From a virus (lineage: Duplodnaviria; Caudoviricetes): a DNA stretch of 64,000 nt. Under the pieces are notes generated by a model. That model did not search any database. It saw nothing but the letters and a program-made list of their open reading frames with translations, and was not told the DNA's origin. The DNA lies in the IMG/VR virus record IMGVR_UViG_2830247124_000001, positions 32,001-96,000 of that record, one strand, 5' to 3'. The number at the start of each line of letters is the position of its first letter. Position 1 is the stretch's first letter. Below are positions 1 to 11,460 of the stretch, one piece after another. Made by a program: the position numbers and the translations under genes.

Positions 1-238
1 ACTGGGCCTCTACGCTGCTGAACTTCTCCCGAGCAATTTCGGCGTACTCTTGAGAGTACCAAGCATCCTCGAACTCCAAGAGAATCTCGTACGTGTTGCC
101 ATCGCTGGAGAAGTGTATGACCTTGAAATCAGTCCCGATACGATGGTCCACGATCTCTTCGAAAAGGTCGCACGCTTCCTGGCTTCCTTCGGTCGTAAAA
201 GAGACTCGCGTCGAGTTTGGCTGTCGTGTGATGTCCAT
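1..238 (-). CDS. hypothetical early protein, runs off window edge (MDITRQPNSTRVSF...)
   Basis: Hand translation from ATG at 238 is open to the window edge; acidic; same strand as the array. Confidence 0.65.
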   Translation of the reverse strand, partial: MDITRQPNSTRVSFTTEGSQEACDLFEEIVDHRIGTDFKVIHFSSDGNTYEILLEFEDAWYSQEYAEIAREKFSSVEAQ

Positions 239-241
239 AGC

Positions 242-259
242 TTCAAAGAATTATTTGAG
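242..259. promoter_or_regulatory. 18-bp palindromic site
   Basis: TTCAAAGAATTATTTGAG, intergenic. Confidence 0.7.
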
Positions 260-274
260 TTACTACGTAGCAGG

Positions 275-568
275 TTACCGGTTGTAAAACGGAAGCTGTT
301 TCCAGTCATCTACTCCCTCGGGACACTCCGCGTCGTAGTGCTTGTCCGTGACAGGATCGTACACCCACTGGTGATTACCCCACTTGTCGTGGAGCACGTC
401 GTGGCCATCGATCTCACATCCGGTCATGCACGCCTTGTCGAAGGATTGCTGGACGCGATGAGCGAACTCCCCGCACATGCCTTGATTGATCTCCCTGGGA
501 GAGTGATTCCACTCCCAGTTTCTTAGAACGTCCAATACGATTTCTGTGACAGAGTTTGGTCTGCTCAT
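275..568 (-). CDS. hypothetical protein (MSRPNSVTE...)
   Basis: ORF 275..679 trimmed to the ATG at 568 that follows the repeat and ACCAGACCC leader; GxC...H...D motifs. Confidence 0.75.
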   Translation of the reverse strand: MSRPNSVTEIVLDVLRNWEWNHSPREINQGMCGEFAHRVQQSFDKACMTGCEIDGHDVLHDKWGNHQWVYDPVTDKHYDAECPEGVDDWKQLPFYNR

Positions 569-602
569 AGCGTGGTTAGTTTGGGTCTGGTAATGGGGTT
601 GA

Positions 603-682
603 ATTACCTCATGTGCGGGCTTATTTGCCTGCCGCATCGCACCCGCCGGTCCCGTTAGGGACCCACGGATGTCACTCACTCA
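603..682 (-). ncRNA. two-hairpin intergenic RNA element, copy 1
   Basis: UAAC hairpin, GCGAU linker, then GCGGC-AGGCAAAUAA-GCCCGC. Confidence 0.7.
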
Positions 683-892
683 CGAGTTGGATTCGACCGC
701 AACGATCAGGGACACGAAGGTCAGCAGGGAAAGCCCCATTAGAGCGGCAAGTCCGGTGCCGCTCTCGAACCCCATCGCGCTGAACGCTTCGTTGAATCCC
801 CACCCGATCAGGTATATCGCATACAATCCAGTCGGGATGCCGAAAAACGCTTTCAGAAAGGTTTTCATGAATCTCTTGTCTGCTTGAGTCAT
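680..892 (-). CDS. small two-TM membrane protein
   Basis: Two hydrophobic segments; start trimmed to MTQADK. Confidence 0.75.
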   Translation of the reverse strand: MTQADKRFMKTFLKAFFGIPTGLYAIYLIGWGFNEAFSAMGFESGTGLAALMGLSLLTFVSLIVAVESNS

Positions 893-925
893 GGGTCTGG
901 GTAATTCTGTCGTAGAGTATCGAAG

Positions 926-996
926 CGGGGACTTATTTGCGTGCCCCATCGCACCCGGCCCGTGATCGAACACGTTGCCGGGTGTCACTCACTCAC
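926..996 (-). ncRNA. two-hairpin RNA element, copy 2
   Basis: Long hairpin (loop UUCGAU) then GGGGC-ACGCAAAUAA-GUCCCC. Confidence 0.65.
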
Positions 997-1010
997 GCTC
1001 ACGCTAATCG

Positions 1011-1250
1011 CTACTCGAACGGGGAAACGTGCCCGTGATTGCCTCCACCTGGAAGCAACTCGGGGTCCTCCGCAAAGTTATCATCGTTCTCGGTGGCGAA
1101 GATGACTTCCCTTCGCTGGGCTCGGTAGATCGTGATGTCACGGTACACCTCGGTCGTGAAGTCTGCGAGATAGTCGCGCAATTCGTCCAGCTTGTCTTGC
1201 GCTTCGCCCTCTGTTTCGGCGTCAATTTCGGCAGTCAGAAGAACCTTCAT
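1011..1250 (-). CDS. acidic hypothetical protein
   Basis: ORF trimmed to MKVLL after the ACCAGACCC leader. Confidence 0.75.
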   Translation of the reverse strand: MKVLLTAEIDAETEGEAQDKLDELRDYLADFTTEVYRDITIYRAQRREVIFATENDDNFAEDPELLPGGGNHGHVSPFE

Positions 1251-1280
1251 GGTTTGGGTCTGGTGTGGTTCGTAGAACAT

Positions 1281-1346
1281 TGAGACGAGGGCTTATTGGC
1301 TTGCCCCATCGCACCCACCACCCCCGTTAGGGGGTCATGGGTCTCA
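1281..1346 (-). ncRNA. two-hairpin RNA element, copy 3
   Basis: CCCC-UAAC-GGGG hairpin then AAGCCAAUAA loop. Confidence 0.7.
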
Positions 1347-1370
1347 CTCACTCACTCACTCACTCACTCA
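1343..1370 (-). repeat. (TGAG)7 microsatellite overlapping a stop codon
   Basis: (CTCA)7 on the + strand. Confidence 0.9.
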
Positions 1371-1819
1371 CGGTGATTCCGTCGCATACGCTCGGCCTCC
1401 TCGTATTCACGCTCGAAGGGGCCTGTCGTCCGCTCCCCGTCTACGGACTTCTGAATCAGACCGATCACGCCCTCCACGGTCTGGCGACCGTAGGGCTCTT
1501 GACGGAGGGGCGTGTCGGCCTCGAAGAGACCCGCGCTCCCCATCGTGTACTTCCCACGCTTGAGGCTGATCGAACGCCCGCTCTCGAAGCGGATGAAGGC
1601 GTGCCCGTGAATGTCCCCCACCTCACCGTCGTAACCGACGGAATCAATCTCGGGGATACGGATCGCCCGAAGGGTCTCCACCATCTCCGGAAACGTGAGA
1701 GTAACGCGGGTGCCTTCGCCCAGGCAATTCACGCACTCGCCCTCGTGATTGTCCAGGGACGTTTCGCCGGTGCCTTCGCAATCGCTGCACTGTACCAAGG
1801 TCGTCTTTTCGATGTCCAT
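1364..1819 (-). CDS. protein with DnaJ-type CxxCxGxG zinc finger
   Basis: CSDCEGTG and CVNCLGEG. Confidence 0.8.
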   Translation of the reverse strand: MDIEKTTLVQCSDCEGTGETSLDNHEGECVNCLGEGTRVTLTFPEMVETLRAIRIPEIDSVGYDGEVGDIHGHAFIRFESGRSISLKRGKYTMGSAGLFEADTPLRQEPYGRQTVEGVIGLIQKSVDGERTTGPFEREYEEAERMRRNHRE

Positions 1820-1837
1820 AGGAATGGGGGTGTTGAA

Positions 1838-1855
1838 TTCAAAGAATTCTGTGAG
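1838..1855. promoter_or_regulatory. 18-bp palindromic site
   Basis: TTCAAAGAATTCTGTGAG. Confidence 0.7.
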
Positions 1856-1926
1856 TTACCTCGTGCGGACTTATTTGCGTGCCGCGTCGTACCCAGGAGG
1901 ACCGTTAGGTCCCCGTGGGTGTCACT
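1852..1926 (-). ncRNA. two-hairpin RNA element, copy 4
   Basis: GGACC-UAAC-GGUCC, ACGCAAAUAA loop, then GAG-GUAA-CUC. Confidence 0.7.
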
Positions 1927-1928
1927 GG

Positions 1929-2168
1929 CTATTCGTTCGGGCCGAGAAAGGCGTTGACGTTGTCGTACTTCGGTTGGTTATTCTCCTCCGTGATAATGAG
2001 ATTCTGCTCTTCGTCCACCATCTCGACGCGGAGACGACCGTCGTCTCTATCGAGACTGATGTAGATACTTCTTGGCCCATCTTTGATTTTGATGACCTCT
2101 CCTACGGAGACTTCTACCTCTCGCTCGTGATTTTCGTGCGAGTCAACGAGTGTCACTTGCTTGCTCAT
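1929..2168 (-). CDS. hypothetical protein
   Basis: 79-aa acidic ORF between two elements. Confidence 0.75.
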   Translation of the reverse strand: MSKQVTLVDSHENHEREVEVSVGEVIKIKDGPRSIYISLDRDDGRLRVEMVDEEQNLIITEENNQPKYDNVNAFLGPNE

Positions 2169-2207
2169 GTCGGTGTGGGGTTGATACCTGAGTAAGTGAG
2201 TCGCCTA

Positions 2208-2270
2208 CGGCGGACTTATTGGCTTGCCACCATCGCACCCACCGGACCCGTTAGGGTCCAGCAGGTGTCT
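2208..2270 (-). ncRNA. two-hairpin RNA element, copy 5
   Basis: 14-bp stem with 3 G-U pairs and UAAC loop; AAGCCAAUAA loop. Confidence 0.75.
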
Positions 2271-2281
2271 GTTATTGCAAG

Positions 2282-3025
2282 TTACGCCGCTACCGCTTCG
2301 CGGAGAACCTTCGGGGTACGAGCTATCTTCTGCTCGGCAAATTCGCGCTGATCGATGGGGCGCTCGTCGCCATCGAAGCGTGGAGCCGAGTGCATCCAGG
2401 CGATTTGCGCAATTGCCTCGGTTGCCAGGATGCTCAGTGCGTCGTCGCCGGTGAACATCTGAGCGTGGGCGTTCCAGGTTCTCCATTCACCCTTGAGGGT
2501 GAACGGCGCGTTTTCCGATCCCAGGTGGACGTGACCCAGGATGTCGTGGATCCAGCGAAATATGTCGTTGTGTAGCATCCTCCGTCCGTTGGCATCGGTG
2601 AACCGCGAAGGGTTCGTGAGGGGGTGGTCTGCCGGGAAATCGCCGGTGCCGGTGCTCATGACCGGCAGGTGCTGGTGATTGCGGACGTGAGTTACCATGC
2701 CCTCGGCGCTGTCGAATGGGTCGCGGTCTACGACCTCGGCCTTGTAGCCGAACGCCCGGAGGAGCCGAAACTGCTGCCCCAACTGCTCGGTGAACTCGCC
2801 GTAGGCGTCTACGACCTTGCGCCGATCCACTTCGCTGGGCCGCCGGTCTGCGCCCTCGAACCACCGGGCGAGCGAACGGATTGCGTCCGAGTCTGGAACC
2901 TGATGTTGGAATGAGTAATCCACCGTAGGTGAATCGCCCAGGACGTGGATGCGGTAGTGACGAACGATGTTTTCGAGCCGTTCGGACGTGCCGTGAGCGA
3001 TTCGCGTTTTCGTGAGCGTAGCCAT
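2282..3025 (-). CDS. conserved phage protein with FRxxHDxxGH...GE...H motif (putative metal-dependent hydrolase)
   Basis: IFRWIHDILGH...FTLKGEWRTWNAH...ATE. Confidence 0.7.
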   Translation of the reverse strand: MATLTKTRIAHGTSERLENIVRHYRIHVLGDSPTVDYSFQHQVPDSDAIRSLARWFEGADRRPSEVDRRKVVDAYGEFTEQLGQQFRLLRAFGYKAEVVDRDPFDSAEGMVTHVRNHQHLPVMSTGTGDFPADHPLTNPSRFTDANGRRMLHNDIFRWIHDILGHVHLGSENAPFTLKGEWRTWNAHAQMFTGDDALSILATEAIAQIAWMHSAPRFDGDERPIDQREFAEQKIARTPKVLREAVAA

Positions 3026-3103
3026 GAGTGTTTGCGGGTCTGGTAGTGAGCGAGTGAAAGGGAGCGGGCCAGTGTCGCCCGATCCCCAATGATGCTATAA
3101 GCC

Positions 3104-3132
3104 AATGTAAGAATTCCAGATGAGAATGTCAA
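3104..3132 (-). promoter_or_regulatory. sigma70-like early promoter
   Basis: TTGACA-N17-TACATT on the minus strand. Confidence 0.8.
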
Positions 3133-3761
3133 GCCTCGATCCAATTGCGGGCGGTTGTCCACACGACCGCTTGAGCTTGTGCTGGCTCGATTCCGTGCAG
3201 GGTGGCCAGCATCTCGACCGCACGGCTGATCGAGCGTCGTGCGTTGCCCGTGATGCTCTTGATGTCGAAATCAGCGAGCTTGAACATCCACGAGTCAACC
3301 GTCACCGGCGTGAGATTCCCGTTTAGGTTCTCGGTGAAGGGCTGAACCTTCGCCCCGGAAGGATGCGCCTGATCGTCCCCGTCCAGGTACTTGATCGCCT
3401 GGGTAGCGTTGTTCCGGTACGTAGTGTACCTCGAAGAAACCTCTACCTTCCAGGTGTAGGGGTAATCGTCCCAGACCTCTACGAGCTTGCTCAGACCGGA
3501 CATATTCGCGGTCCAGTTCGTCATGGGCGAGAGGATCGCCGCCGCACCCGCCATTCGCTCGGTGCTCACGCCAATCCTGCGAGCTAACTCGGAGCATCGC
3601 TCGTTGGCCTTCGGGTACCACTCAAGGCCGTTCTCGAAGGGTGTCTCAAGCCTCTCCCCAACCCGCATGATCTTGCGGTAGCGGTTGAAGCACGAGAACG
3701 TGCGTGATCGCTCTTTGCGGTTGATGCAGCTACTGGTGTCGATGATGTCGGAATCGTACAT
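3129..3761 (-). CDS. conserved phage protein, possible HhH-GPD/glycosylase-like fold (DUF7178-like)
   Basis: WY...AAILSP...W..N...GAKV..F..NL.G...VTVDSW...QAVVW pattern; start trimmed to MYDSD. Confidence 0.65.
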   Translation of the reverse strand: MYDSDIIDTSSCINRKERSRTFSCFNRYRKIMRVGERLETPFENGLEWYPKANERCSELARRIGVSTERMAGAAAILSPMTNWTANMSGLSKLVEVWDDYPYTWKVEVSSRYTTYRNNATQAIKYLDGDDQAHPSGAKVQPFTENLNGNLTPVTVDSWMFKLADFDIKSITGNARRSISRAVEMLATLHGIEPAQAQAVVWTTARNWIEA

Positions 3762-3820
3762 GATCGCGTCTGATTTTCGTGAGTGAGAGTAGGGCGCTGT
3801 TGCTTCCAACGCTATAACCC

Positions 3821-3849
3821 AATGTAAGAATTCAACATCGGGATGTCAA
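3821..3849 (-). promoter_or_regulatory. sigma70-like early promoter
   Basis: TTGACA-N17-TACATT. Confidence 0.8.
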
Positions 3850-3852
3850 ACT

Positions 3853-3906
3853 GGGGGTTATTTGCGTGCCCATAGGCCCCACCGGGCGAATGAACGCCCG
3901 ATGGGA
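3853..3906 (-). ncRNA. two-hairpin RNA element, copy 6 (slightly degenerate)
   Basis: CGGGCG-UUCAUU-CGCCCG hairpin then ACGCAAAUAA. Confidence 0.6.
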
Positions 3907-3924
3907 CTCAAAGAATTCTGTGAG
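3907..3924. promoter_or_regulatory. 18-bp palindromic site
   Basis: CTCAAAGAATTCTGTGAG, 1 nt from a stop codon. Confidence 0.7.
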
Positions 3925-3925
3925 A

Positions 3926-4186
3926 CTACTTCGAGAAAATGACCTGCTCGTCGAGGGACGGCGTGTCGGGTGGGCCTTGGCCGTGATACGTGCGCTCCCC
4001 AGGCGATTCGCGCTCGTTCAAGGCGTCACGGAAGGCTGTGCGCTTGATGACGGATGCCTTCGCGCCCGAACCCGATCCTGGAGTGTGTGTCTCCATGCGC
4101 TCCAATTCGCGCTCGGCCTCACGAAAGGGCATATCGAACGCTTCGTCCTTGAATTTCTCGTATCGGGGGTCTGTTACTGGTCCCAT
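3926..4186 (-). CDS. hypothetical protein
   Basis: 86-aa ORF in the array. Confidence 0.7.
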   Translation of the reverse strand: MGPVTDPRYEKFKDEAFDMPFREAERELERMETHTPGSGSGAKASVIKRTAFRDALNERESPGERTYHGQGPPDTPSLDEQVIFSK

Positions 4187-4228
4187 AGGGACAGGGGGGT
4201 TTGTGTGAGTGAGTGATTTACTTTCTAC

Positions 4229-4286
4229 GGAGGGCTTATTGGCTTGCCTCCATCGTGCCCGCCAGTCCCGCTAGGGACCGGCAGGC
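4229..4286 (-). ncRNA. two-hairpin RNA element, copy 7
   Basis: GCCUGCCGGUCCC-UAGC-GGGACUGGCGGGC ACGAU GGAGGC-AAGCCAAUAA-GCCCUCC. Confidence 0.75.
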
Positions 4287-4294
4287 AGGATCCC

Positions 4295-4441
4295 CTACGA
4301 GAACGCCGGTCGCGCCTCGTAGCTTCGTCCGTAGCTGTCAAGAATCTCCGTCAAGCGGGCGAGTGTGTCCGGGTCGCTGGCACGGAACGCTTTCGTGGCC
4401 GTCGTGATCTCGAACGTGTGGTTTGCGCCTCGGTGGTTCAT
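4295..4441 (-). CDS. 48-aa hypothetical protein (not in ORF track)
   Basis: MNHRGANHTFEITTATKAFRASDPDTLARLTEILDSYGRSYEARPAFS; fills the slot between two elements and has the ACCAGACCC leader. Confidence 0.7.
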   Translation of the reverse strand: MNHRGANHTFEITTATKAFRASDPDTLARLTEILDSYGRSYEARPAFS

Positions 4442-4487
4442 AGTGGTTTAGGGTCTGGTAGATTCACTGTAAGTGAAAGTCGTCTAC

Positions 4488-4545
4488 TGGGCACTGGCTG
4501 GCCCGGTCGTGCCCGCCAGCCTCGTTAGAGGCTCACGGGCGGGGG
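4488..4545 (-). ncRNA. two-hairpin RNA element, copy 8 (variant loop)
   Basis: AGCCUC-UAAC-GAGGCU then GGGC-CAGCCAGU-GCCC. Confidence 0.65.
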
Positions 4546-4547
4546 TG

Positions 4548-5132
4548 TTACTCGCTCCAAGCGTCAGCGAGTTGGTCCTTCGTGATGTCGTCGGGGGCGA
4601 ACATGCCACCCACTTCGTGATACCTGCCACCGGCTTTCAGATCCGTGCGGACGTAGAACTCCGCGTGCTCCTGATCGGGACGTGTAATGCGCTTGAACAT
4701 AGCCCCGGTGACACCCTTTACGGTGAATTTCTCAACGGTCTTCGTGCCCTTCCGGTCTATGCTCGGACTTCGCTTGACATCCGGCCACGAGAGATCGAAG
4801 CACACGTCCGGAAAGTGCGGGTTGATCTCGTCTATGAACTCAAAGACTTCGTCCTTGAGAGCGAGGTATGTGTCTTTAGACACCGCACGCATGTACTCAA
4901 CATCTCCGGTGATTTCAGACTCCGGAAATTCACGCACGGCGATCACTTCGACCTCGACGGTGCGACCGTACCGGCCATCGTGTGTCTTGAACTGGATCTC
5001 GGGAAACACCTCGGTGCCGTCGTCGAGGACGACCCCTTCGAGGGTCTGCATCGCAAACCGACCCTCGTTCGTGATGCCATCATGTGCGACGAGACGGCTC
5101 ATCAGGTTCATGCTCAGGTTAGTGTTTTCCAT
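4548..5132 (-). CDS. hypothetical protein
   Basis: ORF trimmed to MENTNL; acidic. Confidence 0.8.
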   Translation of the reverse strand: MENTNLSMNLMSRLVAHDGITNEGRFAMQTLEGVVLDDGTEVFPEIQFKTHDGRYGRTVEVEVIAVREFPESEITGDVEYMRAVSKDTYLALKDEVFEFIDEINPHFPDVCFDLSWPDVKRSPSIDRKGTKTVEKFTVKGVTGAMFKRITRPDQEHAEFYVRTDLKAGGRYHEVGGMFAPDDITKDQLADAWSE

Positions 5133-5164
5133 CGTATCGATTACGTAGTAATGGGAGTGAGTGT

Positions 5165-5235
5165 GAGTTACCTCGTATGAGGGCTTATTGGCTTGCCTCA
5201 TCGTGCCCACTGGTCCCGTTAGGGACCGGCGGGCG
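5165..5235 (-). ncRNA. two-hairpin RNA element, copy 9
   Basis: UAAC hairpin, AUGAGGC-AAGCCAAUAA-GCCCUCAU, then GAG-GUAA-CUC. Confidence 0.75.
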
Positions 5236-5241
5236 GTTGCC

Positions 5242-5523
5242 TTAGTTGATCGAGTCGATGAAATTCATGAACCGCATGGCGTGACGATCACACGAGAACG
5301 TGATTCGCACGTCTCCGCTTTCGAGAATCTCTACGACCGGGGGGTCTATCGGGTCGCCCAGGTCGTGCGATCCTGCACGGAAGTTCAGCGCATTGACCAC
5401 GTCAGTGATGATCGAGGGCCAATCACGCATGTACGTGGTCGTGAGCTTGACTGCGTGATTCGTGCGCCTTGCCGCCGCCTTTTCCAGCGTGCCGAGTGAG
5501 GATGTTGCTTCGGAAGTAGCCAT
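5242..5523 (-). CDS. hypothetical protein
   Basis: 93-aa ORF downstream of a promoter. Confidence 0.7.
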   Translation of the reverse strand: MATSEATSSLGTLEKAAARRTNHAVKLTTTYMRDWPSIITDVVNALNFRAGSHDLGDPIDPPVVEILESGDVRITFSCDRHAMRFMNFIDSIN

Positions 5524-5579
5524 AACGCGAGTGTATGTGTTCGAGTGAGTGAGAACCCCGCCCCGTCAACGTAGAAACC

Positions 5580-5608
5580 AATGTAAGAATTCAAACATCG
5601 GCTGTCAA
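5580..5608 (-). promoter_or_regulatory. sigma70-like early promoter
   Basis: TTGACA-N17-TACATT. Confidence 0.8.
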
Positions 5609-5629
5609 GTCGGCCCGAAGGGCCTGCGC

Positions 5630-5827
5630 CTACTGCGCCCACGGGTCGCTGCGCCGTATGCGAGAGGCTCGGTGCTGGGCATCTTCGCGGATGCGCTTTT
5701 CACGGGCGCTCTCTTCGCGGCATCGCAGGCACAATTCGCCTTCGAGTTGAGCGATGTGAGTCTCTTCGCCGCATTGAACGCAGCGAAGATAATCCATCGA
5801 GTCGAGTTGTTCTTGGGATAGATCCAT
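5630..5827 (-). CDS. small zinc-finger protein
   Basis: CVQC...CLRC. Confidence 0.75.
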   Translation of the reverse strand: MDLSQEQLDSMDYLRCVQCGEETHIAQLEGELCLRCREESAREKRIREDAQHRASRIRRSDPWAQ

Positions 5828-5872
5828 AGCGTGATGCTTCGTGTGAGCGTTAGTGAGTGGACACTGCTGGTA

Positions 5873-6136
5873 CTAAAGACCACCACGGCCCATAGGGCCG
5901 AATACGTAGTGCGTCGGAATCAGCACCAGCACGTCCTCGCCATCGTAGGTGTACGTGTAGACCTTGTCGCCGCTTCTCCAAGCAAGGCGCGAGTCTGCGT
6001 CCGGGTCGAGGTGCAGGATCTCTTTGTACTTTCGGTCCCATAGGGACCGAACGGTTTCATGAGCCTCCGTAAGCGAATCGCCCGCGACGACTGGTTCTTG
6101 CTTCGGGCCAGTCAGGTTCACCAGATAATACTCCAT
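5873..6136 (-). CDS. hypothetical protein
   Basis: Trimmed to MEYYLV after the CACACGAAGCA leader. Confidence 0.75.
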   Translation of the reverse strand: MEYYLVNLTGPKQEPVVAGDSLTEAHETVRSLWDRKYKEILHLDPDADSRLAWRSGDKVYTYTYDGEDVLVLIPTHYVFGPMGRGGL

Positions 6137-6170
6137 GACGTGTACGTGTAATGCTTCGTGTGAGTGATAG

Positions 6171-6243
6171 CGAGTTACCTCCGTGGTGGGCTTATTGGCT
6201 TGCCACCGGCGAACCCAACGGGCGAAGCAACGCCCGATGGGTT
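6171..6243 (-). ncRNA. two-hairpin RNA element, copy 10
   Basis: UUGCUU-loop hairpin then GGUGGC-AAGCCAAUAA-GCCCACC. Confidence 0.75.
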
Positions 6244-6260
6244 TCAAAGAATTCTTTGAG
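6243..6260. promoter_or_regulatory. 18-bp palindromic site
   Basis: TTCAAAGAATTCTTTGAG. Confidence 0.7.
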
Positions 6261-6261
6261 T

Positions 6262-6558
6262 TCAGAGCTTCGTGGGTCCCGTTACGTGGACACCCTTCAC
6301 GCGGAACAGGTACTCATCCCCGTCCCAGCGAACCGTGATCGTGTCGCGGGGATCGAAAATCTCGGAGCACTGGTGCAGACCGTAAAGGTCTGTGTAAAGG
6401 CGCTCCACCGGGCCTTGGTCGTCTACGGCATTGTCCTCGGTGACGTAGAACTGCCAGGATCCGGTGTTGATGTACTCTCCTTCGGAGTCGTGCAGGTGAA
6501 AGCTGCAAAACGGCGGCTCAGGGGTCGTAGCGTCGATTGCTTCGAGGGTGTATCTCAT
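6262..6558 (-). CDS. hypothetical protein
   Basis: Trimmed to MRYTLE. Confidence 0.75.
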   Translation of the reverse strand: MRYTLEAIDATTPEPPFCSFHLHDSEGEYINTGSWQFYVTEDNAVDDQGPVERLYTDLYGLHQCSEIFDPRDTITVRWDGDEYLFRVKGVHVTGPTKL

Positions 6559-6598
6559 GGCGTGATGCTTCGTGTGTGAGTGAGAGTGAGTTACCTCG

Positions 6599-6946
6599 TT
6601 AGAGGTTGGCCCGCCAGTCCGTAGGGAGACTGGCAATTTCTCGCATCGTCTCTACGAGACGCTCCACAGACACGGGTCCCTCCACGCCGATGTCTTCGCG
6701 GCTGACAACGTCTCCATCGTAGATGATGCTGCCTGATCTATCGATCATGGCGATCTCGTAGTTCGAGTCGTCGGTGTTGTAAGCCATTTCTCCCTGGATG
6801 ATGCTAATGCCGTAGCCATTAGCAAACCAGACTCGCACTTGATCTGGAGCGTGGTCACGCTGGTTGAACTCCGTGTCGATGACCGGTAGGTCATGCAACT
6901 GCTCGGAGAACCAATCTTCGGTGTCTGAAACGACGGAATCTATCAT
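6599..6946 (-). CDS. conserved phage hypothetical protein (F.NGYG.S...YE.A motif)
   Basis: WFANGYGISII...YEIAMI; start trimmed to MIDSVV. Confidence 0.75.
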   Translation of the reverse strand: MIDSVVSDTEDWFSEQLHDLPVIDTEFNQRDHAPDQVRVWFANGYGISIIQGEMAYNTDDSNYEIAMIDRSGSIIYDGDVVSREDIGVEGPVSVERLVETMREIASLPTDWRANL

Positions 6947-6983
6947 GGCGCAATTGCTTCGTGTGATGAGGGAGTGAGTGACT

Positions 6984-7040
6984 GAGGACTTATTGGCTTG
7001 CCTCGTCGCTTCCACCGGGCGAAGCAACGCCCGATGGAAG
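6984..7040 (-). ncRNA. two-hairpin RNA element, copy 11
   Basis: CUUCCAUCGGGCG-UUGCUU-CGCCCGGUGGAAG CGAC GAGGC-AAGCCAAUAA-GUCCUC. Confidence 0.75.
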
Positions 7041-7057
7041 TCAAAGAATTCTGTGAG
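7040..7057. promoter_or_regulatory. 18-bp palindromic site
   Basis: GTCAAAGAATTCTGTGAG. Confidence 0.7.
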
Positions 7058-7059
7058 AG

Positions 7060-7566
7060 TTACTGCTCGATCAGGTACATCTGCTCGCAATCCCGGACGG
7101 TCTGGTGCGGGAAGAGCGCCTCGGTCTCGTAGTCGGTGCCACGATCCTCGTCGATGACGGCCAGAGGGTAGTAAGCTACCCTTGTGAGGGGCTGTGGCCG
7201 CCCCATCACGCCTGCCTTGTCATCGTAGACCCAGGCCGTCCACTTCGATGTCTCGTTAGAGACCTCGTTGGCAAACCAAGGCGGAAGTGCGAGATCGTAG
7301 TGCCCCTTCGAGATTCCGAGCGTATCTTCCACGACGGCCTCGGCCAGATCACCTACGGTGCGGATCTGCTCCGCGAGCTTGAGTGATCTCGCCCCCGCCT
7401 TGCTCTTGCGGAGGTGCAGTGGACCACGCCCGTCATCCACGTCCAGGGACACGAACCCTGGGATTTCCTTGGACTGCTTGATGGACTTGACGTAGAACAC
7501 TTTCTCGCCGTCGTAGACGATCTCGCCTTCGAAGGACTCGCTAAGGGTGTCGATTAGGTCTTGCAT
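7060..7566 (-). CDS. hypothetical protein
   Basis: 168-aa ORF in the array. Confidence 0.8.
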   Translation of the reverse strand: MQDLIDTLSESFEGEIVYDGEKVFYVKSIKQSKEIPGFVSLDVDDGRGPLHLRKSKAGARSLKLAEQIRTVGDLAEAVVEDTLGISKGHYDLALPPWFANEVSNETSKWTAWVYDDKAGVMGRPQPLTRVAYYPLAVIDEDRGTDYETEALFPHQTVRDCEQMYLIEQ

Positions 7567-7593
7567 AGCAACTTTGGCTTCGTGAGTGAGAGT

Positions 7594-7660
7594 GAGTTAC
7601 CTCGTGGGCACTGGCTGGCCCAAGCGAACCCCACGAGCGAATTAACGCCCGCCGGGTTGA
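7594..7660 (-). ncRNA. two-hairpin RNA element, copy 12 (variant loop)
   Basis: UUAAUU-loop hairpin, GGGC-CAGCCAGU-GCCC, then GUAA hairpin. Confidence 0.65.
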
Positions 7661-7665
7661 CGTGA

Positions 7666-7902
7666 CTACGTGAACAGCGAGTTCAGGACCTTCGCGGCGG
7701 CGGAATCTTCGCCGTTGGCCCACCGCAAGTTTTGGAGATACTCTACGGGGTCCTCGTGCTTGATCGCCTCTGCGATGACCTCTCGCTGGTCGGAATAGTC
7801 GTTGTTCGGGGTGGCATTAGCCACCAACTGCTCCTCCATCGAGCGGAGGACGTTGCGCGTCATCTCGTGCGGATCGTCGAATACCGGTTCGTGGAGTTCC
7901 AT
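7666..7902 (-). CDS. hypothetical protein
   Basis: Trimmed to MELHEP. Confidence 0.75.
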   Translation of the reverse strand: MELHEPVFDDPHEMTRNVLRSMEEQLVANATPNNDYSDQREVIAEAIKHEDPVEYLQNLRWANGEDSAAAKVLNSLFT

Positions 7903-7962
7903 GGCTACGTGTGATCGTGTGAGTGTGAGTGAAAGCCGTCGGCCTCTGCCAACGGATGAACC

Positions 7963-7991
7963 AATGTAAGAACCCAACTCTGGAATTCCAA
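7963..7991 (-). promoter_or_regulatory. sigma70-like early promoter
   Basis: TTGGAA-N17-TACATT. Confidence 0.7.
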
Positions 7992-8010
7992 ATCCTCTGG
8001 CCCCGCAGTG

Positions 8011-8253
8011 CTACGCGAGAGAGTCGAGCGTGTCCTCAAGCGTGCAGGTAAGCCGCAACGCGGCATCGCGGGTCCCCTGGTGGTCGGACTCCATCCGAGA
8101 CTCAAGGTACTCCATAGGAGTAAGGCTGGAAGGATCGTCGATGGCCTCCTTCGCCACGCGCTGGATCGTGCCTGCACGGGTGGTTCGCCTGCCGGATTCA
8201 GCGATCTTGTGACGGAAATACCGAAGTATTTTTTCTTGCTTGGATTCACTCAT
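8011..8253 (-). CDS. hypothetical protein
   Basis: 80-aa ORF. Confidence 0.7.
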   Translation of the reverse strand: MSESKQEKILRYFRHKIAESGRRTTRAGTIQRVAKEAIDDPSSLTPMEYLESRMESDHQGTRDAALRLTCTLEDTLDSLA

Positions 8254-8295
8254 GGCGTGATTGCAATTGCGTGATGAGAGCGATTGAATTCCCTA

Positions 8296-8352
8296 CGGGG
8301 ACTTATTGGCTTGCCCCATCGGCCTCACCACGCGAATCAACGCGCAGTGAGA
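8296..8352 (-). ncRNA. two-hairpin RNA element, copy 13
   Basis: UUGAUU-loop hairpin then GGGGC-AAGCCAAUAA-GUCCCC. Confidence 0.7.
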
Positions 8353-8370
8353 CTCACAGAATTCTGTGAG
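8353..8370. promoter_or_regulatory. 18-bp palindromic site (perfect)
   Basis: CTCACAGAATTCTGTGAG, a perfect palindrome. Confidence 0.75.
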
Positions 8371-8375
8371 TTAGC

Positions 8376-8654
8376 TTAGAAGTTAGCGGCATTGAACACC
8401 CAGTCCCCGAGCGATCCTTCGGGCGTGGACTGGGCAAGATGCTGATCGTAGCTGTCCCGAACCTCGTTCAGCCGGTCCCGAGACAGGCGGCCACACATGG
8501 CCATGCCGATGATCTTACGATCATCGTCTCGATCTTCGAGCAGGTTGGCAGTTACCCGAACGTAGCCGGGATTGTCCATGAGTTCGAGTTCCACGTCATA
8601 GACGTGGTCTACTGTCTTGGTACGGAGGTTCTGGAGTGCTGGAGAGATTTCCAT
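8376..8654 (-). CDS. hypothetical protein
   Basis: 92-aa ORF. Confidence 0.75.
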   Translation of the reverse strand: MEISPALQNLRTKTVDHVYDVELELMDNPGYVRVTANLLEDRDDDRKIIGMAMCGRLSRDRLNEVRDSYDQHLAQSTPEGSLGDWVFNAANF

Positions 8655-8714
8655 ATCGCGGGATTGCTTCGTGTGAGTGTGAGTGAATCGCTGCCTTCTG
8701 GCAACGGATCAACC

Positions 8715-8743
8715 AAGGTAATGAGCCTAATGTTGGAATTCAA
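8715..8743 (-). promoter_or_regulatory. sigma70-like early promoter
   Basis: TTGAAT-N17-TACCTT. Confidence 0.7.
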
Positions 8744-8762
8744 GCCGGTCCGAAGGACCCGC

Positions 8763-9002
8763 CTACGCTACGTGCCCCTCCGTGGCCGTGATGTAGGGAT
8801 CATCACGGAAGTGATCGAGGAGGTCGGTCCGTGCCTGCGCAGAATGCCCGTTCGTGGCAATCTGCACCCCGTGAGTTGTCTCAGCTACGGGACACATGCC
8901 CGTGATCGACCGGGCGGCTGCACGGATCTGCTCGTTGACGAATTCATCGTTCGTATGAACGATGAGATGCTTGGGACCGTCGATCTCTACGAAAAACTTC
9001 AT
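8763..9002 (-). CDS. hypothetical protein
   Basis: Trimmed to MKFFVE. Confidence 0.7.
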   Translation of the reverse strand: MKFFVEIDGPKHLIVHTNDEFVNEQIRAAARSITGMCPVAETTHGVQIATNGHSAQARTDLLDHFRDDPYITATEGHVA

Positions 9003-9040
9003 GGCGTGATGCAATTGGCGTGTGATGAGGTAGCGAGTGA

Positions 9041-9095
9041 TGGGCACTGGCTGGCCCAGTCGATCCCACCACGCGATCCAACGCCCGGTGGGATT
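9041..9095 (-). ncRNA. two-hairpin RNA element, copy 14 (variant loop)
   Basis: UUGGAU-loop hairpin then UGGGC-CAGCCAGU-GCCCA. Confidence 0.65.
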
Positions 9096-9111
9096 CAAAG
9101 AATTCTTTGAG
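9094..9111. promoter_or_regulatory. 18-bp palindromic site
   Basis: TTCAAAGAATTCTTTGAG abutting a stop codon. Confidence 0.7.
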
Positions 9112-9450
9112 TTAGATCACGAAGTGCTTCAGGAGTGCCCATGCAGCCTTCCGGTCTACGTCATCCCCGTGCAACACTGTCTTAGACAGTGTCACGAGCG
9201 GATGAATCCCCTCGGAGCGGAGTCCGTCCAGAGCGAATTTGGCTACGGAGATCATGGTCGCGGCGAACGTGGGATCGGTCACGGCGTGCTCGGTATCCTG
9301 GCCGCCCACGACCCTCTTGGAGAGCTTTTTCAGACGAATCTCGAAGAGGTCCTCGTGAAAGGTGGCGTTATCCACCGCGTCCGATTCGCTCATAGAGCGA
9401 ATGTTCTGAATTACTTCGTTTGCGGTGTCGTTCTTGTCGGAAGCTGTCAT
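9112..9450 (-). CDS. hypothetical protein
   Basis: Trimmed to MTASDK. Confidence 0.75.
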   Translation of the reverse strand: MTASDKNDTANEVIQNIRSMSESDAVDNATFHEDLFEIRLKKLSKRVVGGQDTEHAVTDPTFAATMISVAKFALDGLRSEGIHPLVTLSKTVLHGDDVDRKAAWALLKHFVI

Positions 9451-9515
9451 AACGTGCGCGAATTGCTTCGTGTGAGGGAGTGAGAAGTCCGTCGGCCTCT
9501 GCCAACGGATCAACC

Positions 9516-9544
9516 AATGTATGACTCGGATGTTGGAATTCCAA
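9516..9544 (-). promoter_or_regulatory. sigma70-like early promoter
   Basis: TTGGAA-N17-TACATT. Confidence 0.7.
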
Positions 9545-10002
9545 ACGCTCTACCTGCGTAGCACTGCGGGCAAAGAGCGCGTCCCCAACTCGCCGGTGGA
9601 TGGGCGGAGGTCAATTTGAGAATCCCAATGGGAGGTCCATCCCCTACGGGGATGAGTTCGGTATTGGGGTCAATCCACGGGCGTGCGCGTGCGGATCGGC
9701 GTTGGAGCGGGTGGTTTTCGGTGGTTTCCCGTAGGGAGTTGGGTGAAAGGGGTTGTGGGTGGACCCGTAGGGCCGCAGATGGGCGCTGAGGAATATCCAT
9801 CGCTCTGGGGTGACTCTATAGAGTCAAATGAATCAAGGCTTGATTTACCTCTCGTGGGCCGATCTGGGCGCAACGCGAATCCGCCGTAGGCGGCGCTGAA
9901 TAGGCTTTTTTCCGGGGATGTATAAATCCCAGTTCAGCCAAAAAAAAACTCCCCACCACCCCTTTAGGGGTGATGAGGAGCGAGTTACCTCTCGTGATGC
10001 CC

Positions 10003-10036
10003 AAAAGCCCCACGGCGCGGTGCTTCGCGCCGTGGT
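10003..10036 (-). terminator. intrinsic terminator-like hairpin
   Basis: CCACGGCGCG/CGCGCCGTGG stem followed by GGCTTTT on the minus strand, just after the stop at 10049. Confidence 0.55.
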
Positions 10037-10048
10037 GGGCGGGGCTGG

Positions 10049-10867
10049 CTAGACGAGATCGCCCAGGAGGTCCTTGACCTCCTCCCGCACAATCTCGCGG
10101 ATCCGCTCCTCGGTGACCGAGTCGCAGTCGCAGTCGGAGTCATCGACGTTGTCGATGCGTTCGTCGATCCGCTTGTCGATCAACTTCTGCATCATGGCTC
10201 CGACTTCTGCCGTGCCCGTGGACTCCGTGGCGTCTGCGGCGCTGTCAGCGTCGTCAGAATCGGAGTTCTCTGACGTGTCCGAGCCGGTGGACTCCGTGGC
10301 GTCCGTGTCGCTCATGTCAGCTTCGCAGTCGGCGTCATCGGCGGATCGCCAATCCCGTTCGGCGTAGTTTTCGTCATCCTCCTGGCACTCTACGGCGTCT
10401 TTCGCCTGGATAATGCGCAGGAAAGACTCCGTGTGAGAGTGGTAGACGCCGTCCTCAGCGTCGTCGTAGTCACTCTCGGCGGAAGACCCGCAAAACCCTG
10501 TGCGGATCATGTGCGCCGTTTGGCGCTTCTTCAGGTTCAACCCCCAGCTCTGGTTGTCCCGCACCGTGCGGAGCAACTCCGTGAGTTGCTTGGCCTTGAA
10601 CTGGTCCGTCAACTGGTCACGGCTCCAACTGGTCGGATCGAATTCCAGGGATCCTCGGTCCATGCGGTCAAGCACGGGCTGTAGCGCCGCATAATGCACG
10701 AGCGACAGTGCGGCTGCCTGCTCGCTACCGGAGTCGATCCCGTCGAGTGATTGAGTTACCTTGGCGATCTGGTGCTTGGAGTTCTGCGCGGCGTGGCGCG
10801 GGCCTTGGTCGCCGTGGGTCTTGGCTTTGATGGCTTCGTTGAGGTTGCTGATGGCTTGCGTGCTCAT
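10049..10867 (-). CDS. acidic hypothetical protein, isolated transcription unit
   Basis: 272 aa with DATESTG twice in an acidic linker; has its own promoter and terminator. Confidence 0.8.
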   Translation of the reverse strand: MSTQAISNLNEAIKAKTHGDQGPRHAAQNSKHQIAKVTQSLDGIDSGSEQAAALSLVHYAALQPVLDRMDRGSLEFDPTSWSRDQLTDQFKAKQLTELLRTVRDNQSWGLNLKKRQTAHMIRTGFCGSSAESDYDDAEDGVYHSHTESFLRIIQAKDAVECQEDDENYAERDWRSADDADCEADMSDTDATESTGSDTSENSDSDDADSAADATESTGTAEVGAMMQKLIDKRIDERIDNVDDSDCDCDSVTEERIREIVREEVKDLLGDLV

Positions 10868-10933
10868 AAGCGCGGTTTCTTTCTGCGTGAGTAGCGAGTG
10901 AGTGATTCGCTGCGTCGTTGCAACGGATTCCCC

Positions 10934-10962
10934 AATAACGCCGATTCTGGATCCGATTGCAA
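10934..10962 (-). promoter_or_regulatory. variant early promoter
   Basis: TTGCAA-N17-GTTATT followed by the same GG...ATCCGTTG leader as other copies. Confidence 0.5.
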
Positions 10963-11060
10963 GAATTCCAGAGAATCCTTTCGTGCAGGGTACCGCGCAT
11001 GAAAAGTTGCGCCCGTCCCTGATCCCACACGCTGTGTCCCAAAACTCGGGATCCAGATCG

Positions 11061-11168
11061 GGTTTCGGGACGATTGGTTTCGGGAACTGTTTTGGGACGG
11101 ATTTGCCCCCGTTTAGGCCCGGATTTGCCCCCGGATTTGCCCCGTCCCAGAATCGGACGTTTTCGGGA
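11061..11168. repeat. short direct repeats in the divergent non-coding region
   Basis: CGGATTTGCCCC x3 (11098, 11120, 11132); TTTCGGGA x3. Confidence 0.7.
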
Positions 11169-11460
11169 AGGGTCCAAGGCGCGGCTGAATTGCGGGTGCT
11201 GTGCGGGCTGTGTGCGGGTTTCGCGCACCCCTGGGGGTGGGGGGTCGTGCATTATGCGCCATCGCGCCCCCCTATCCGCGCTTGCGACGCGGTCGCGCAC
11301 GCTCGCTCACATATTATTATCTTCATGTGTGATGCTACGAACCTCAATTCTGAGAGGGTCAACCAAACCCCCGGTCACCAAACCACCCCACTCCCCAGAT
11401 AGGCTCCAACCAAACCACCCCACCCCGTTAGGGAACCTACCCAAGATACTGTCTCTCGCT

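What the first reader, a model, noticed from the sequence alone, without database searches (positions are those of the whole stretch)
603..9095. Fourteen copies of an unrecognised two-hairpin structured RNA punctuate the early gene array
Seen: copies lie at about 603, 926, 1281, 1852, 2208, 3853, 4229, 4488, 5165, 6171, 6984, 7594, 8296 and 9041. Each sits between the stop of one small gene and the start of the next. On the sense (minus) strand each reads: a ~13-bp hairpin (loop UAAC/UAGC or UUNNWU), a CGAY-type linker, then a 5-6-bp stem with loop AAGCCAAUAA (variants ACGCAAAUAA, AGGCAAAUAA, CAGCCAGU), often followed by a GAG-GUAA-CUC GNRA hairpin. Stem sequences differ between copies but pairing is kept (GGAGG/CCUCC, GGUGG/CCACC, GCGG/CCGC; GGUCCC/GGGACC versus GGACCC/GGGUCC versus AGCCUC/GAGGCU). 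Many imperfect pairs are G-U on the minus strand and A-C on the plus strand (copies 1, 5, 7, 11), which points to folding as sense RNA. Inference: this is a cis-acting RNA whose conserved loop is read by a protein or by RNA polymerase. Candidate roles are mRNA processing into monocistronic units (analogous to T7 early RNase III sites), put/nut-like antitermination, a translation enhancer, or a new self-cleaving motif. I do not recognise it as a known family.
Basis: partly seen in the sequence, partly recalled or inferred. Interest (0 to 1): 0.92.

Follow-up and report, generated by a model that had tools for sequence, protein, structure and literature searches.

The report
Repeated two-hairpin RNA between phage genes
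A previously undescribed folded RNA motif is repeated 19 times between the small genes of a salt-lake phage, where it probably marks off and protects individual messages, and related phages gain, lose and swap genes at its copies.

Summary
All 14 copies are confirmed. The family has 19 copies, all on the minus strand, within 12.8 kb of a 109-kb phage genome with terminal repeats. True copies score 40-75 bits; everything else scores 15 bits or less.

Both helices covary: 13 of 17 pairs change on both sides, and 0 of 500 shuffles reach the observed values. Non-Watson-Crick cells are G-U 27 times and A-C twice, so the sense strand folds. No copy has a U-tract and Rfam gives no match.

Every copy starts 5-27 nt after a stop codon. 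In 4 of 19 a promoter follows directly, so the element belongs to the upstream gene's 3' end.

Contigs of related phages from hypersaline metagenomes break synteny at these repeats.

Best reading (0.45): an intercistronic mRNA processing or stability signal read by an unknown protein, whose DNA also acts as a crossover point, as T4-type PeSLs do. Function is inferred; no RNA data exist. Other first readers noted this element on this same DNA (e1-6224360); it was not found on other DNA.

The parts
9032..9094 (-). element copy: H1 with hexaloop, then H2 type B (loop CAGCCAGU)
   Evidence: R1 53.0 bits. Palindrome P lies directly upstream.
8291..8353 (-). element copy: H1 with hexaloop, then H2 type A (loop AAGCCAAUAA)
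   Evidence: R1 69.2 bits. P lies upstream.
7596..7658 (-). element copy: H1 with hexaloop, then H2 type B, followed by GAGGTAACTC
   Evidence: R1 52.7 bits. Sequence.
6978..7040 (-). element copy: H1 with hexaloop UUGCUU, then H2 type A
   Evidence: R1 72.8 bits. Joints 1866->6980 and 4016->6984 end here.
6180..6243 (-). element copy: H1 with hexaloop, then H2 type A, followed by GAGGTAACTC
   Evidence: R1 66.5 bits. Joint 5833->6184 ends here.
5173..5235 (-). element copy: H1 with tetraloop UAAC, then H2 type A, followed by GAGGTAACTC
   Evidence: R1 75.4 bits. Joints 2242->5216 and 5210->5605 touch it.
4479..4541 (-). element copy: H1 with tetraloop UAAC, then H2 type B
   Evidence: R1 54.1 bits.
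4224..4287 (-). element copy: H1 with tetraloop UAGC, then H2 type A
   Evidence: R1 72.1 bits.
3846..3907 (-). element copy: H1 with hexaloop, then H2 type A variant (ACGCAAAUAA), with a promoter directly downstream
   Evidence: R1 63.0 bits. Promoter 3849-3821. H2 to ATG is 90 nt.
2204..2267 (-). element copy: H1 with tetraloop UAAC, then H2 type A
   Evidence: R1 68.9 bits. Joint 2242->5216 and loose ends at 2233 touch it.
1859..1921 (-). element copy: H1 with tetraloop UAAC, then H2 type A variant, followed by GAGGTAACTC and P
   Evidence: R1 69.0 bits. Loose end at 1895 continues into the H1 of copy 2204-2267.
1281..1343 (-). element copy: H1 with tetraloop UAAC, then H2 type A, preceded by a (GTGA)n tract
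   Evidence: R1 72.9 bits. Joints at 1285, 1292 and 1318.
921..984 (-). element copy: H1 with hexaloop UUCGAU, then H2 type A variant
   Evidence: R1 57.5 bits.
609..671 (-). element copy: H1 with tetraloop UAAC, then H2 type A variant (AGGCAAAUAA)
   Evidence: R1 70.8 bits. Back-joint 1864->613 (table 5c).
9095..9110 (.). 16-bp palindrome P (TCAAAGAATTCTTTGA type) between the stop codon and H1. Further array copies at 8354-8369, 7041-7056, 6244-6259, 3908-3923, 1839-1854 and 243-258.
   Evidence: 16 sites in the window, 0 expected. Loose ends at 242 and 1838.
5580..5608 (-). sigma-70-like promoter TTGACA-N17-TACATT. The same type lies at 3821-3849 and 3104-3132.
   Evidence: 10 of 12 matches each.
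7963..7991 (-). weaker promoter-like site TTGGAA-N17-TACATT. Similar sites at 8715-8743 and 9516-9544.
   Evidence: Read from the sequence and repeat families D7, D11-D13. The scan did not call them.
9948..9981 (-). the one canonical hairpin-plus-T-run terminator on this strand, upstream of the array. Its hairpin resembles H1.
   Evidence: R1 15.1 bits.

Best explanation
The element is a cis-acting structured RNA module of about 57 nt that closes the 3' end of small gene cassettes in the phage's promoter-rich, presumably early, region.

Shown:
- It folds on the sense transcript into two hairpins. H1 is 11-14 bp with a freely varying, covarying upper stem. H2 is 5 bp with one bulge.
- The bottom of H1 (CCC/GGG), the linker (YRCGAY) and the H2 loop (core AGCMARU) are conserved in sequence.
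- It follows the upstream stop codon by 5-27 nt and has no U-tract.
- It lies inside promoterless runs of up to seven genes, so transcription must pass through it.

Inferred: the conserved H1-base, linker and H2 surface is recognised by a protein, most likely an endoribonuclease or RNA-binding protein of host or phage. Cleavage or binding there would punctuate the polycistronic early mRNA. The upstream message would end in the very stable H1, protected from 3' exonucleases. The downstream message would start with H2 and a C/A-rich leader that lacks a Shine-Dalgarno sequence. Each cassette would thus be insulated.

Shown at the DNA level: because the module is repeated, it is also a place where related phages have deleted, replaced and re-joined cassettes. 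The junctions sit at varied positions in H1, H2, the palindrome, the leaders and the promoters. That fits homologous exchange, as described for T4-type PeSLs.
For: - Family and specificity: 19 copies at 40-75 bits against 15 bits or less elsewhere in the genome, with filters off.
- Covariation: 13 of 17 pairs change on both sides, and 0 of 500 shuffles reach any measure.
- Strand: G-U 27 against A-C 2. The minus-strand fold is more stable in 15 of 19 copies.
- Position: stop to H1 is 5-27 nt in 19 of 19. H2 to ATG is 33-49 nt in 15 of 19. A promoter follows H2 directly in 4 of 19.
- Not a terminator: at most 3 T (after H1) and 4 T (after H2) in the next 10 nt. The scan calls only one canonical terminator on this strand in window 1-12000.
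- Read-through is required: I see no promoter between 3104 and about -60, while six elements lie there.
- Graded conservation: mean pairwise identity is 0.45 for the H1 top, 0.64 for the H1 base plus linker, and 0.73 for H2.
- H1 loop classes and H2 types occur in all four combinations.
- Cassette seams: of the 15 joints shown (4 more exist but were not shown), 21 of 30 endpoints are intergenic, where 23% is expected (p = 8e-8), and 10 of 30 lie in elements (p = 5e-4).
- Well-anchored joints: 5829->6145 (sides 203 and 215 letters, two runs from two studies); 5210->5605, where 404 foreign letters replace 394 (side 229); 2242->5216, H1 to H1 (side 52).
- Five of the ten loose-end or between-joint strings tested map to other repeat modules of the same genome. 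They show palindrome-to-palindrome, H1-to-H1, H2-to-H2 and promoter-to-promoter joins.
- Precedent: PeSLs (PMC2839356, abstract and section 13 read). T7 RNase III signals, and 3' hairpins as stability determinants (PMC3867540, passages read).
Against: - There is no RNA evidence at all: no mapped ends, no expression data, and no RNA run holds the stretch.
- No candidate nuclease or RNA-binding protein was found. RNase III, Csy4 and Cas6 families are absent from the phage. The RegB search rang in no control genome, so it is uninformative.
- 30 of 35 array proteins were scanned, and only DUF7178, PAPS_reduct and Resolvase pass Pfam cut-offs.
- H1 (11-14 bp) plus a separate H2 is not the interrupted roughly 20-bp helix of T7 RNase III sites.
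- All covariation comes from paralogous copies in one genome. Part of it may reflect reassortment of a few hairpin types rather than stepwise compensatory change.
- C-to-T bias on the non-template strand could add some G-U excess, though hardly 27 to 2.
- Several joints have short sides (20-27 letters). These may only mean that a relative carries an element followed by a different gene.
- Repeats can be kept alike by gene conversion without any RNA function.
Confidence: 0.45

Rival explanations
1. Transcription attenuator or conditional terminator. H1, perhaps helped by a factor bound at H2, stops part of the RNA polymerases at each cassette end. This would give a gradient of expression, or a delayed class of genes that needs a phage antiterminator. 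It is the role proposed for the stem-loops of PeSLs.
For: - The element sits right after stop codons.
- H1 is very stable, with whole-element folds of -24 to -34 kcal/mol.
- 4 of 19 copies are followed at once by a new promoter, the terminator-then-promoter order of PeSLs (PMC2839356, section 13).
- The only canonical terminator nearby has an H1-like hairpin.
Against: - 0 of 19 copies have a U-tract.
- Six elements lie in a promoterless run of seven genes that must still be expressed.
- It does not explain the conserved H2 loop.
Confidence: 0.2
2. Translation insulator or standby element for the downstream gene. The host seems not to use Shine-Dalgarno sites here. The hairpins would lock up G/C-rich sequence so that the C/A-rich leader stays single-stranded. 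The frequent GAGG or UAGG just after H2 might hold a 30S subunit.
For: - H2 to ATG spacing is narrow, 33-49 nt, in 15 of 19 copies.
- Leaders lack Shine-Dalgarno sequences and are C/A-rich.
- A GAGG, UAGG or GGAG word lies within about 12 nt after H2 in about 10 of 19 copies (my reading).
Against: - In 4 of 19 copies a promoter separates the element from the next gene, so the main transcript of that gene lacks the element.
- Several genes in the array have the same leaders without any element, for example those starting at 6558 and 5827.
Confidence: 0.1
3. Single-stranded-DNA recombination site of an integron-like cassette system. The hairpins fold in one DNA strand, as attC sites do, and a recombinase excises and inserts cassettes.
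For: - The array is co-oriented, with a structured, sequence-variable site at each cassette's 3' end.
- Cassette content differs between relatives, with junctions in the elements.
- A serine resolvase gene ends the array.
- G-T wobble in single-stranded DNA would give the same strand asymmetry.
Against: - The phage has no tyrosine recombinase and no Y1 transposase.
- Serine resolvases act on double-stranded sites (recalled).
- Junctions lie at many different positions (H1, H2, palindrome, leader, promoter) and not at one crossover point.
- The H1 base is CCC/GGG, not the attC core (my reading; the attC core is recalled).
Confidence: 0.07
4. Processive antitermination signal, put-like (RNA alone) or nut-like (hairpin bound by a phage protein), that modifies RNA polymerase.
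For: - It has two hairpins of put-like size.
- H2 is about the size of boxB, with a conserved purine-rich loop preceded by a conserved linear stretch.
Against: - Nineteen copies would be far more than such a signal needs.
- None is placed just after a promoter.
- Four lie just before one.
- There are no canonical terminators inside the array to overcome.
Confidence: 0.06
5. Released small RNA that acts in trans, as a decoy or sponge for a host RNA-binding protein or defence system, or a small self-cleaving ribozyme.
For: - Many copies would give a high dose.
- The loop is conserved.
- Phage RNA decoys are known (a preprint on phage-encoded guide RNAs, seen only in the listing).
Against: - There is no conserved pseudoknot or loop-loop pairing (my reading).
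- No ribozyme or small-RNA family matches.
- The strict placement after stop codons is not explained.
Confidence: 0.05

Closest known systems
PeSLs (promoter-early stem-loops) of T4-type phages (Arbiol et al. 2010, PMC2839356; Comeau et al. 2014, PMC4122927)
   Same: - Short composite motifs repeated between small ORFan genes of a hyperplastic early region.
- They contain a stable stem-loop with G-T pairs marked.
- They act as crossover points for insertion, deletion and replacement of genes between close relatives.
   Different: - PeSLs are defined by a sigma-70 promoter with one stem-loop in or beside it.
- Here only 4 of 19 copies adjoin a promoter.
- This element has two hairpins with a conserved 10-nt loop, shows strand-specific RNA covariation, and shares no sequence with PeSLs.
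RNase III processing signals of the T7 early polycistronic mRNA (Nicholson review, PMC3867540, passages read)
   Same: - Structured signals between cistrons of a long host-transcribed early mRNA.
- Cleavage leaves 3' hairpins that stabilise the upstream message.
   Different: - T7 has five sites, each a single interrupted helix (recalled).
- Here there are 19 sites of two separate hairpins, with H1 only 11-14 bp and a conserved single-stranded loop.
- No cleavage has been shown, and the phage has no RNase III gene.
REP/BIME elements as intercistronic mRNA stabilisers in enterobacteria (recalled: Newbury, Higgins and co-workers, 1987; not read here)
   Same: Repeated extragenic hairpins just after stop codons inside operons, which protect upstream mRNA from 3' exonucleases.
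   Different: - REPs are chromosomal and often occur in inverted pairs.
- They are tied to RAYT transposases (recalled), and none is present here.
- They have no second hairpin with a conserved loop.
Integron attC sites (recalled)
   Same: A structure-conserved, sequence-variable, strand-specific hairpin at the 3' end of each co-oriented cassette.
   Different: - The phage has no tyrosine integrase.
- There is no attC-type core at the stem base.
- Junction positions vary.
Intrinsic terminators; HK022 put and lambda nut sites (recalled)
   Same: - A G+C-rich hairpin after a gene, as in terminators.
- Two hairpins, as in put.
- A small hairpin with a conserved loop after a conserved linear box, as in nut.
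   Different: - No U-tract in 0 of 19 copies.
- The copy number and the placement relative to promoters fit neither put nor nut.

Membership tests
Any Rfam 15 family | Score at or above the family's gathering threshold | tested here: not met
   0 matches in the whole window. At E up to 5-10 only chance-level partial hits appear, e.g. P37 at 22.8 bits against a threshold of 50.
Intrinsic (Rho-independent) terminator | G+C-rich hairpin | tested here: met
   H1 is 11-14 bp in all 19 copies.
Intrinsic (Rho-independent) terminator | U-tract directly after the hairpin | tested here: not met
   At most 3 T in the 10 nt after H1 and 4 T in the 10 nt after H2, in 19 of 19 copies. None of the 14 window copies is called by the terminator scan.
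T4-type PeSL | Sigma-70-like early promoter as part of the motif | tested here: not met
   A promoter directly follows H2 in only 4 of 19 copies.
T4-type PeSL | Stable stem-loop in an intergenic motif repeated among ORFan genes | tested here: met
   Of 30 array proteins scanned (of 35), 27 have no Pfam family over the cut-off.
T4-type PeSL | Indels and replacements between close relatives have their ends in the motifs | tested here: met
   21 of 30 joint endpoints are intergenic and 10 of 30 lie in elements. Loose ends map to other modules. These are contigs of metagenomes, not finished genomes.
T7-type RNase III site | Single, roughly two-turn double helix with an internal loop, cut by RNase III | tested here: not met
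   Each copy is two separate hairpins, and H1 is 11-14 bp. Cleavage cannot be tested with these tools.
Integron attC / cassette system | Adjacent tyrosine integrase (IntI) | tested here: not met
   PF00589 is absent from the 109-kb genome, while the control rang in 14 of 14 genomes.
Integron attC / cassette system | One fixed crossover point in a conserved core at the stem base | tested here: inconclusive
   Junctions lie at varied places, but the relatives are 80-99% alike, so exact points are uncertain. The H1 base is CCC/GGG.
REP/RAYT | Associated Y1 (RAYT) transposase | tested here: not met
   PF01797 is absent from the phage. The host genome was not available.
HK022 put / lambda nut | One site just downstream of each early promoter, acting on RNA polymerase | tested here: not met
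   No copy lies just after a promoter, and 4 lie just before one. The activity cannot be tested here.

The most novel reading that the evidence does not exclude
The element is the recognition site of a dedicated, still unidentified RNA-cutting or RNA-binding protein. That protein would punctuate phage early transcripts cassette by cassette, much as Cas6 or Csy4 cuts CRISPR repeats but acting on messenger RNAs. The same module defines mobile gene cassettes at the DNA level. It would then be a new kind of unit that carries its own RNA-level insulation and drives turnover of early, probably anti-host, genes in hypersaline phages.
Probability: 0.15. Interest if true: 0.85.

Novelty: new variant of a known kind. 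Interest (0 to 1): 0.6.

Why it matters
- It adds a well-supported new structured RNA family: 19 copies, strong covariation, sense-strand specific, no Rfam match.
- It comes from a phage lineage with no close relative in GenBank phages, PLSDB or the served IMG/VR records.
- It links two things usually studied apart. One is RNA-level punctuation of polycistronic phage messages. The other is DNA-level shuffling of ORFan cassettes in natural populations.
- If a specific protein reads the conserved H1-base, linker and H2 surface, the pair could serve as an insulator or processing tool that works at high salt.
- The array would also be a good place to look for rapidly exchanged anti-defence genes.

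Tried and rejected
**Relatives**
A script screened them by fold energy and motif count, not with the covariance model. None of the 13 candidates it printed has the H1-linker-H2 layout.
- A 19-mer and a promoter pattern gave 0 hits in viral contigs.
- The major capsid protein and an alignment of the 272-aa protein gave no related viral locus.
- Relatives of the PAPS-reductase-like protein, at 61% identity or less, lack the element. In 80 viral loci (1.33 Mb) the best hit was 17.1 bits. In 80 metagenome loci (0.77 Mb) there were 0 hits.
- A 19-mer scan of genome contigs gave 20 single hits in unrelated taxa. All are partial matches to the typed word, at 18-28 bits.
- GenBank phages gave no DNA match in near or distant mode. 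PLSDB gave none. The 272-aa protein matched neither collection.
- Protein clusters show that contigs at 90% identity or more exist in JGI and Logan data. Orthologous copies could therefore not be aligned.

**RNA evidence**
- No RNA holder is listed.
- Read laying printed only 40 of 672 single-letter differences, and none lies in a helix. Population-level compensatory change could not be tested.

**Partner protein**
- RNase III, Csy4 and Cas6 families are absent from the phage. The RegB search rang in no control genome, so it is uninformative.
- The Atlas look-up of the 272-aa protein gave nothing usable.

**Readings dropped**
- A coding reading: an ATG lies in the linker of only 8 of 19 copies (my count).
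- An antisense promoter in H2: the spacing to any -35-like word is wrong (my reading).
- H1-loop to H2-loop kissing: UUGCUU against AAGCAA fits only a few copies.

Supplementary files of the papers were not opened.

Full report
**Context.** The window is bases 32001-96000 of a 108,994-bp virus record with direct terminal repeats.
- Its major head protein is only distantly related (26-28% identity) to those of T5-like phages of about 110-120 kb.
- It also encodes a terminase-like protein, a small terminase, an exonuclease, a 3210-aa protein and a 4815-aa polyvalent protein.
- The first 10 kb of the window, together with about 5 kb before it, is a minus-strand array of about 35 small genes.
- Thirty of these proteins were scanned. 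Only three pass a Pfam cut-off: DUF7178, a PAPS-reductase-like protein and a serine resolvase at the far end.
- Three TTGACA-N17-TACATT promoters are called by the scan. I read several weaker ones of the same build from the sequence.
- That these genes are 'early' is an inference from this layout.

**The observation.**
- A covariance model built from 18 copies finds 19 copies in the whole genome. All are on the minus strand, between genome 28318 and 41094.
- They score 40.5-75.4 bits. With filters off, the next best hit is 15.1 bits.
- Each copy is H1 (11-14 bp, loop of 4-6 nt or more), a 6-7-nt linker, and H2 (5 pairs with one bulged base).
- The H2 loop is AAGCCAAUAA or a close variant in 16 copies and CAGCCAGU in 3.
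- Pairing holds in 89.3% of 299 cells, against 71.1% after shuffling. Thirteen of 17 pairs change on both sides. No shuffle in 500 reaches any of the five measures. Sliding the 3' partners by 1-3 columns drops pairing to 37-54%.
- Mean pairwise identity rises from 0.45 in the upper part of H1 to 0.64 for the H1 base plus linker and 0.73 for H2.
- The conserved surface is therefore the junction of the two helices plus the H2 loop.

**Which strand folds.** In the consensus helices of the 19 copies, the non-Watson-Crick cells are G-U 27 times and A-C twice (p = 1.6e-6). The minus-strand RNA fold is the more stable one in 15 of 19 copies (mean -28.8 against -26.1 kcal/mol, Wilcoxon p = 0.013). A double-stranded DNA palindrome would show no such asymmetry. 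Mutation bias on the non-template strand could contribute, but hardly at this ratio. The simplest reading is selection on the sense transcript. A fold in single-stranded DNA of that strand is not excluded.

**Placement.**
- H1 starts 5-27 nt after the upstream stop codon in 19 of 19 copies.
- The next ATG follows H2 by 33-49 nt in 15 copies.
- In the other 4 copies, a promoter begins a few bases after H2.
- The element therefore goes with the 3' end of the upstream gene and is not part of the leader of the next gene.
- No copy has a U-tract: at most 3 and 4 T in the 10 nt after H1 and H2.
- The only canonical terminator called on this strand lies upstream of the array.
- Six elements lie in a stretch of seven genes in which I find no promoter. 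RNA polymerase must therefore read through them.

**Known families.** Rfam gives nothing at the gathering thresholds and only chance-level partial hits at E up to 10. The phage has no gene for a tyrosine recombinase, a Y1 transposase, RNase III, Csy4 or Cas6. The RegB search was uninformative.

**Relatives and natural variation.** I could fetch no related phage that carries the element.
- Public runs helped instead. Hypersaline-lake and brine metagenomes from three studies hold parts of the array. I laid contigs of four of these runs on window 1-9500 at 80% likeness or more.
- These contigs break synteny at the repeats. Of the 15 joints shown (4 more exist but were not shown), 21 of 30 endpoints are intergenic, where 23% is expected (p = 8e-8). 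Ten of 30 lie in the elements (p = 5e-4). Nine of 15 joints have both ends intergenic.
- Well-anchored cases:
  - 5829->6145 removes the 87-aa gene by a leader-to-leader join (sides 203 and 215 letters, in two runs from two studies).
  - 5210->5605 replaces the 93-aa gene by 404 foreign letters, between H1 and a promoter (side 229).
  - 2242->5216 joins the H1 of one copy to the H1 of another and removes five genes (side 52).
- Loose ends of contigs map to other modules of the same genome. These show palindrome-to-palindrome joins that remove 1.5 or 3.1 kb, an H1-to-H1 and an H2-to-H2 join that each remove the 79-aa gene 1929-2168, and a promoter-to-promoter join.
- Five other strings tested are absent from this genome, so they are cassettes that this phage lacks.
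- Both H2 types occur with both H1 loop classes inside the genome, as expected if exchange also happens within the element.
- Caveats: these are short metagenome contigs. Several joints have sides of only 20-27 letters. Exact crossover points cannot be fixed at 80-99% likeness.

**Mechanism.**
- Shown: a sense-strand two-hairpin fold with a conserved junction and loop; obligatory read-through; attachment to the 3' ends of cassettes; and synteny breaks at the repeats.
- Inferred: the conserved surface is read by a protein. Cleavage or binding there cuts the polycistronic message into units that end in H1 and begin with H2 plus an unstructured C/A-rich leader. This parallels the five RNase III signals of the T7 early transcript and the stabilising 3' hairpins they leave (PMC3867540, passages read).
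- The DNA-level behaviour parallels the PeSLs of T4-type phages, where repeated promoter and stem-loop motifs between ORFan genes mediate modular shuffling (PMC2839356, abstract and section 13; PMC4122927, abstract). A PeSL-like motif has also been reported in the haloarchaeal virus HGTV-1 (PMC3950731, one passage).
- I put 0.45 on the processing and stability reading, 0.2 on attenuation, and less on the other rivals.

**Novelty.** The RNA motif itself is new: it matches no Rfam family, was found in no served collection, and did not appear in my paper searches, which are not exhaustive. The kind of thing is known, namely repeated intercistronic hairpin modules in a plastic phage early region. 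I therefore class it as a new variant of a known kind. It is of good but not exceptional interest, because it is so far confined to one phage lineage and no function has been shown.

Noticed in passing
window 243-258, 1839-1854, 3908-3923, 6244-6259, 7041-7056, 8354-8369, 9095-9110, 11462-11477, 14520-14535, 19917-19932, 27794-27809, 39267-39282, 42932-42947, 55838-55853, 61418-61433: A 16-bp AT-rich palindrome (TCAAAGAATTCTTTGA type) occurs at 16 sites in the window, where 0 are expected. It appears in both genome arms and often lies just after stop codons. In the array it sits directly before H1 in 5 copies. Relatives' contigs also join at it. It looks like the binding site of a dimeric protein, stoperator-like (recalled).
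   Followed up: partly
window 584-591, 1257-1264, 3037-3044, 4452-4459 (minus strand), and many leaders in L009 12800-18000: Genes of the array lack Shine-Dalgarno sequences. Two leader types recur just before the ATG: (CT)ACCAGACCC and CACACGAAGCA(A)TCACGCC. This suggests a host that starts translation without Shine-Dalgarno pairing.
   Followed up: partly
window 1336-1378; also about 675-690 and 985-1010; L009 about 16838-16860: (GTGA)n tracts lie between the stop codon and H1 in four copies. The 4-nt repeat places TGA in all three frames, so it stops translation whatever the frame, which would suit a junction where different genes are joined on. Read laying skipped 1336-1378 as a repeat.
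   Followed up: no
window 9934-9981 minus strand: The only canonical hairpin-plus-T-run terminator on this strand near the array. Its hairpin resembles H1 (loop UAAA) and it is preceded by a GAGAGGTAACTC box.
   Followed up: partly
window 44872-59319 and 28299-37931, plus strand: Two giant ORFs. The 4815-aa protein has ART-PolyVal and LPD38 domains of polyvalent proteins. The 3210-aa protein has only a weak PKD match.
   Followed up: no
L009 13114-13689 minus strand (genome 27114-27689): A serine resolvase with an HTH_7 domain closes the small-gene array. It is preceded by a palindrome P copy.
   Followed up: partly
window 8745-8765 and 5610-5630 minus strand: Genes that are followed by a promoter, not by the element, often end with a small GGNCC-UUCG-GGNCC hairpin just before the -35 box. 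This is a simpler terminator-then-promoter layout, closer to PeSLs.
   Followed up: no
window 5195-5201, 631-637, 943-949 minus strand: An ATG in the linker (CGATG) is in frame with the downstream gene in three copies, which lengthens naive ORF calls. An ATG is present in only 8 of 19 linkers, so I do not read it as a start codon.
   Followed up: partly
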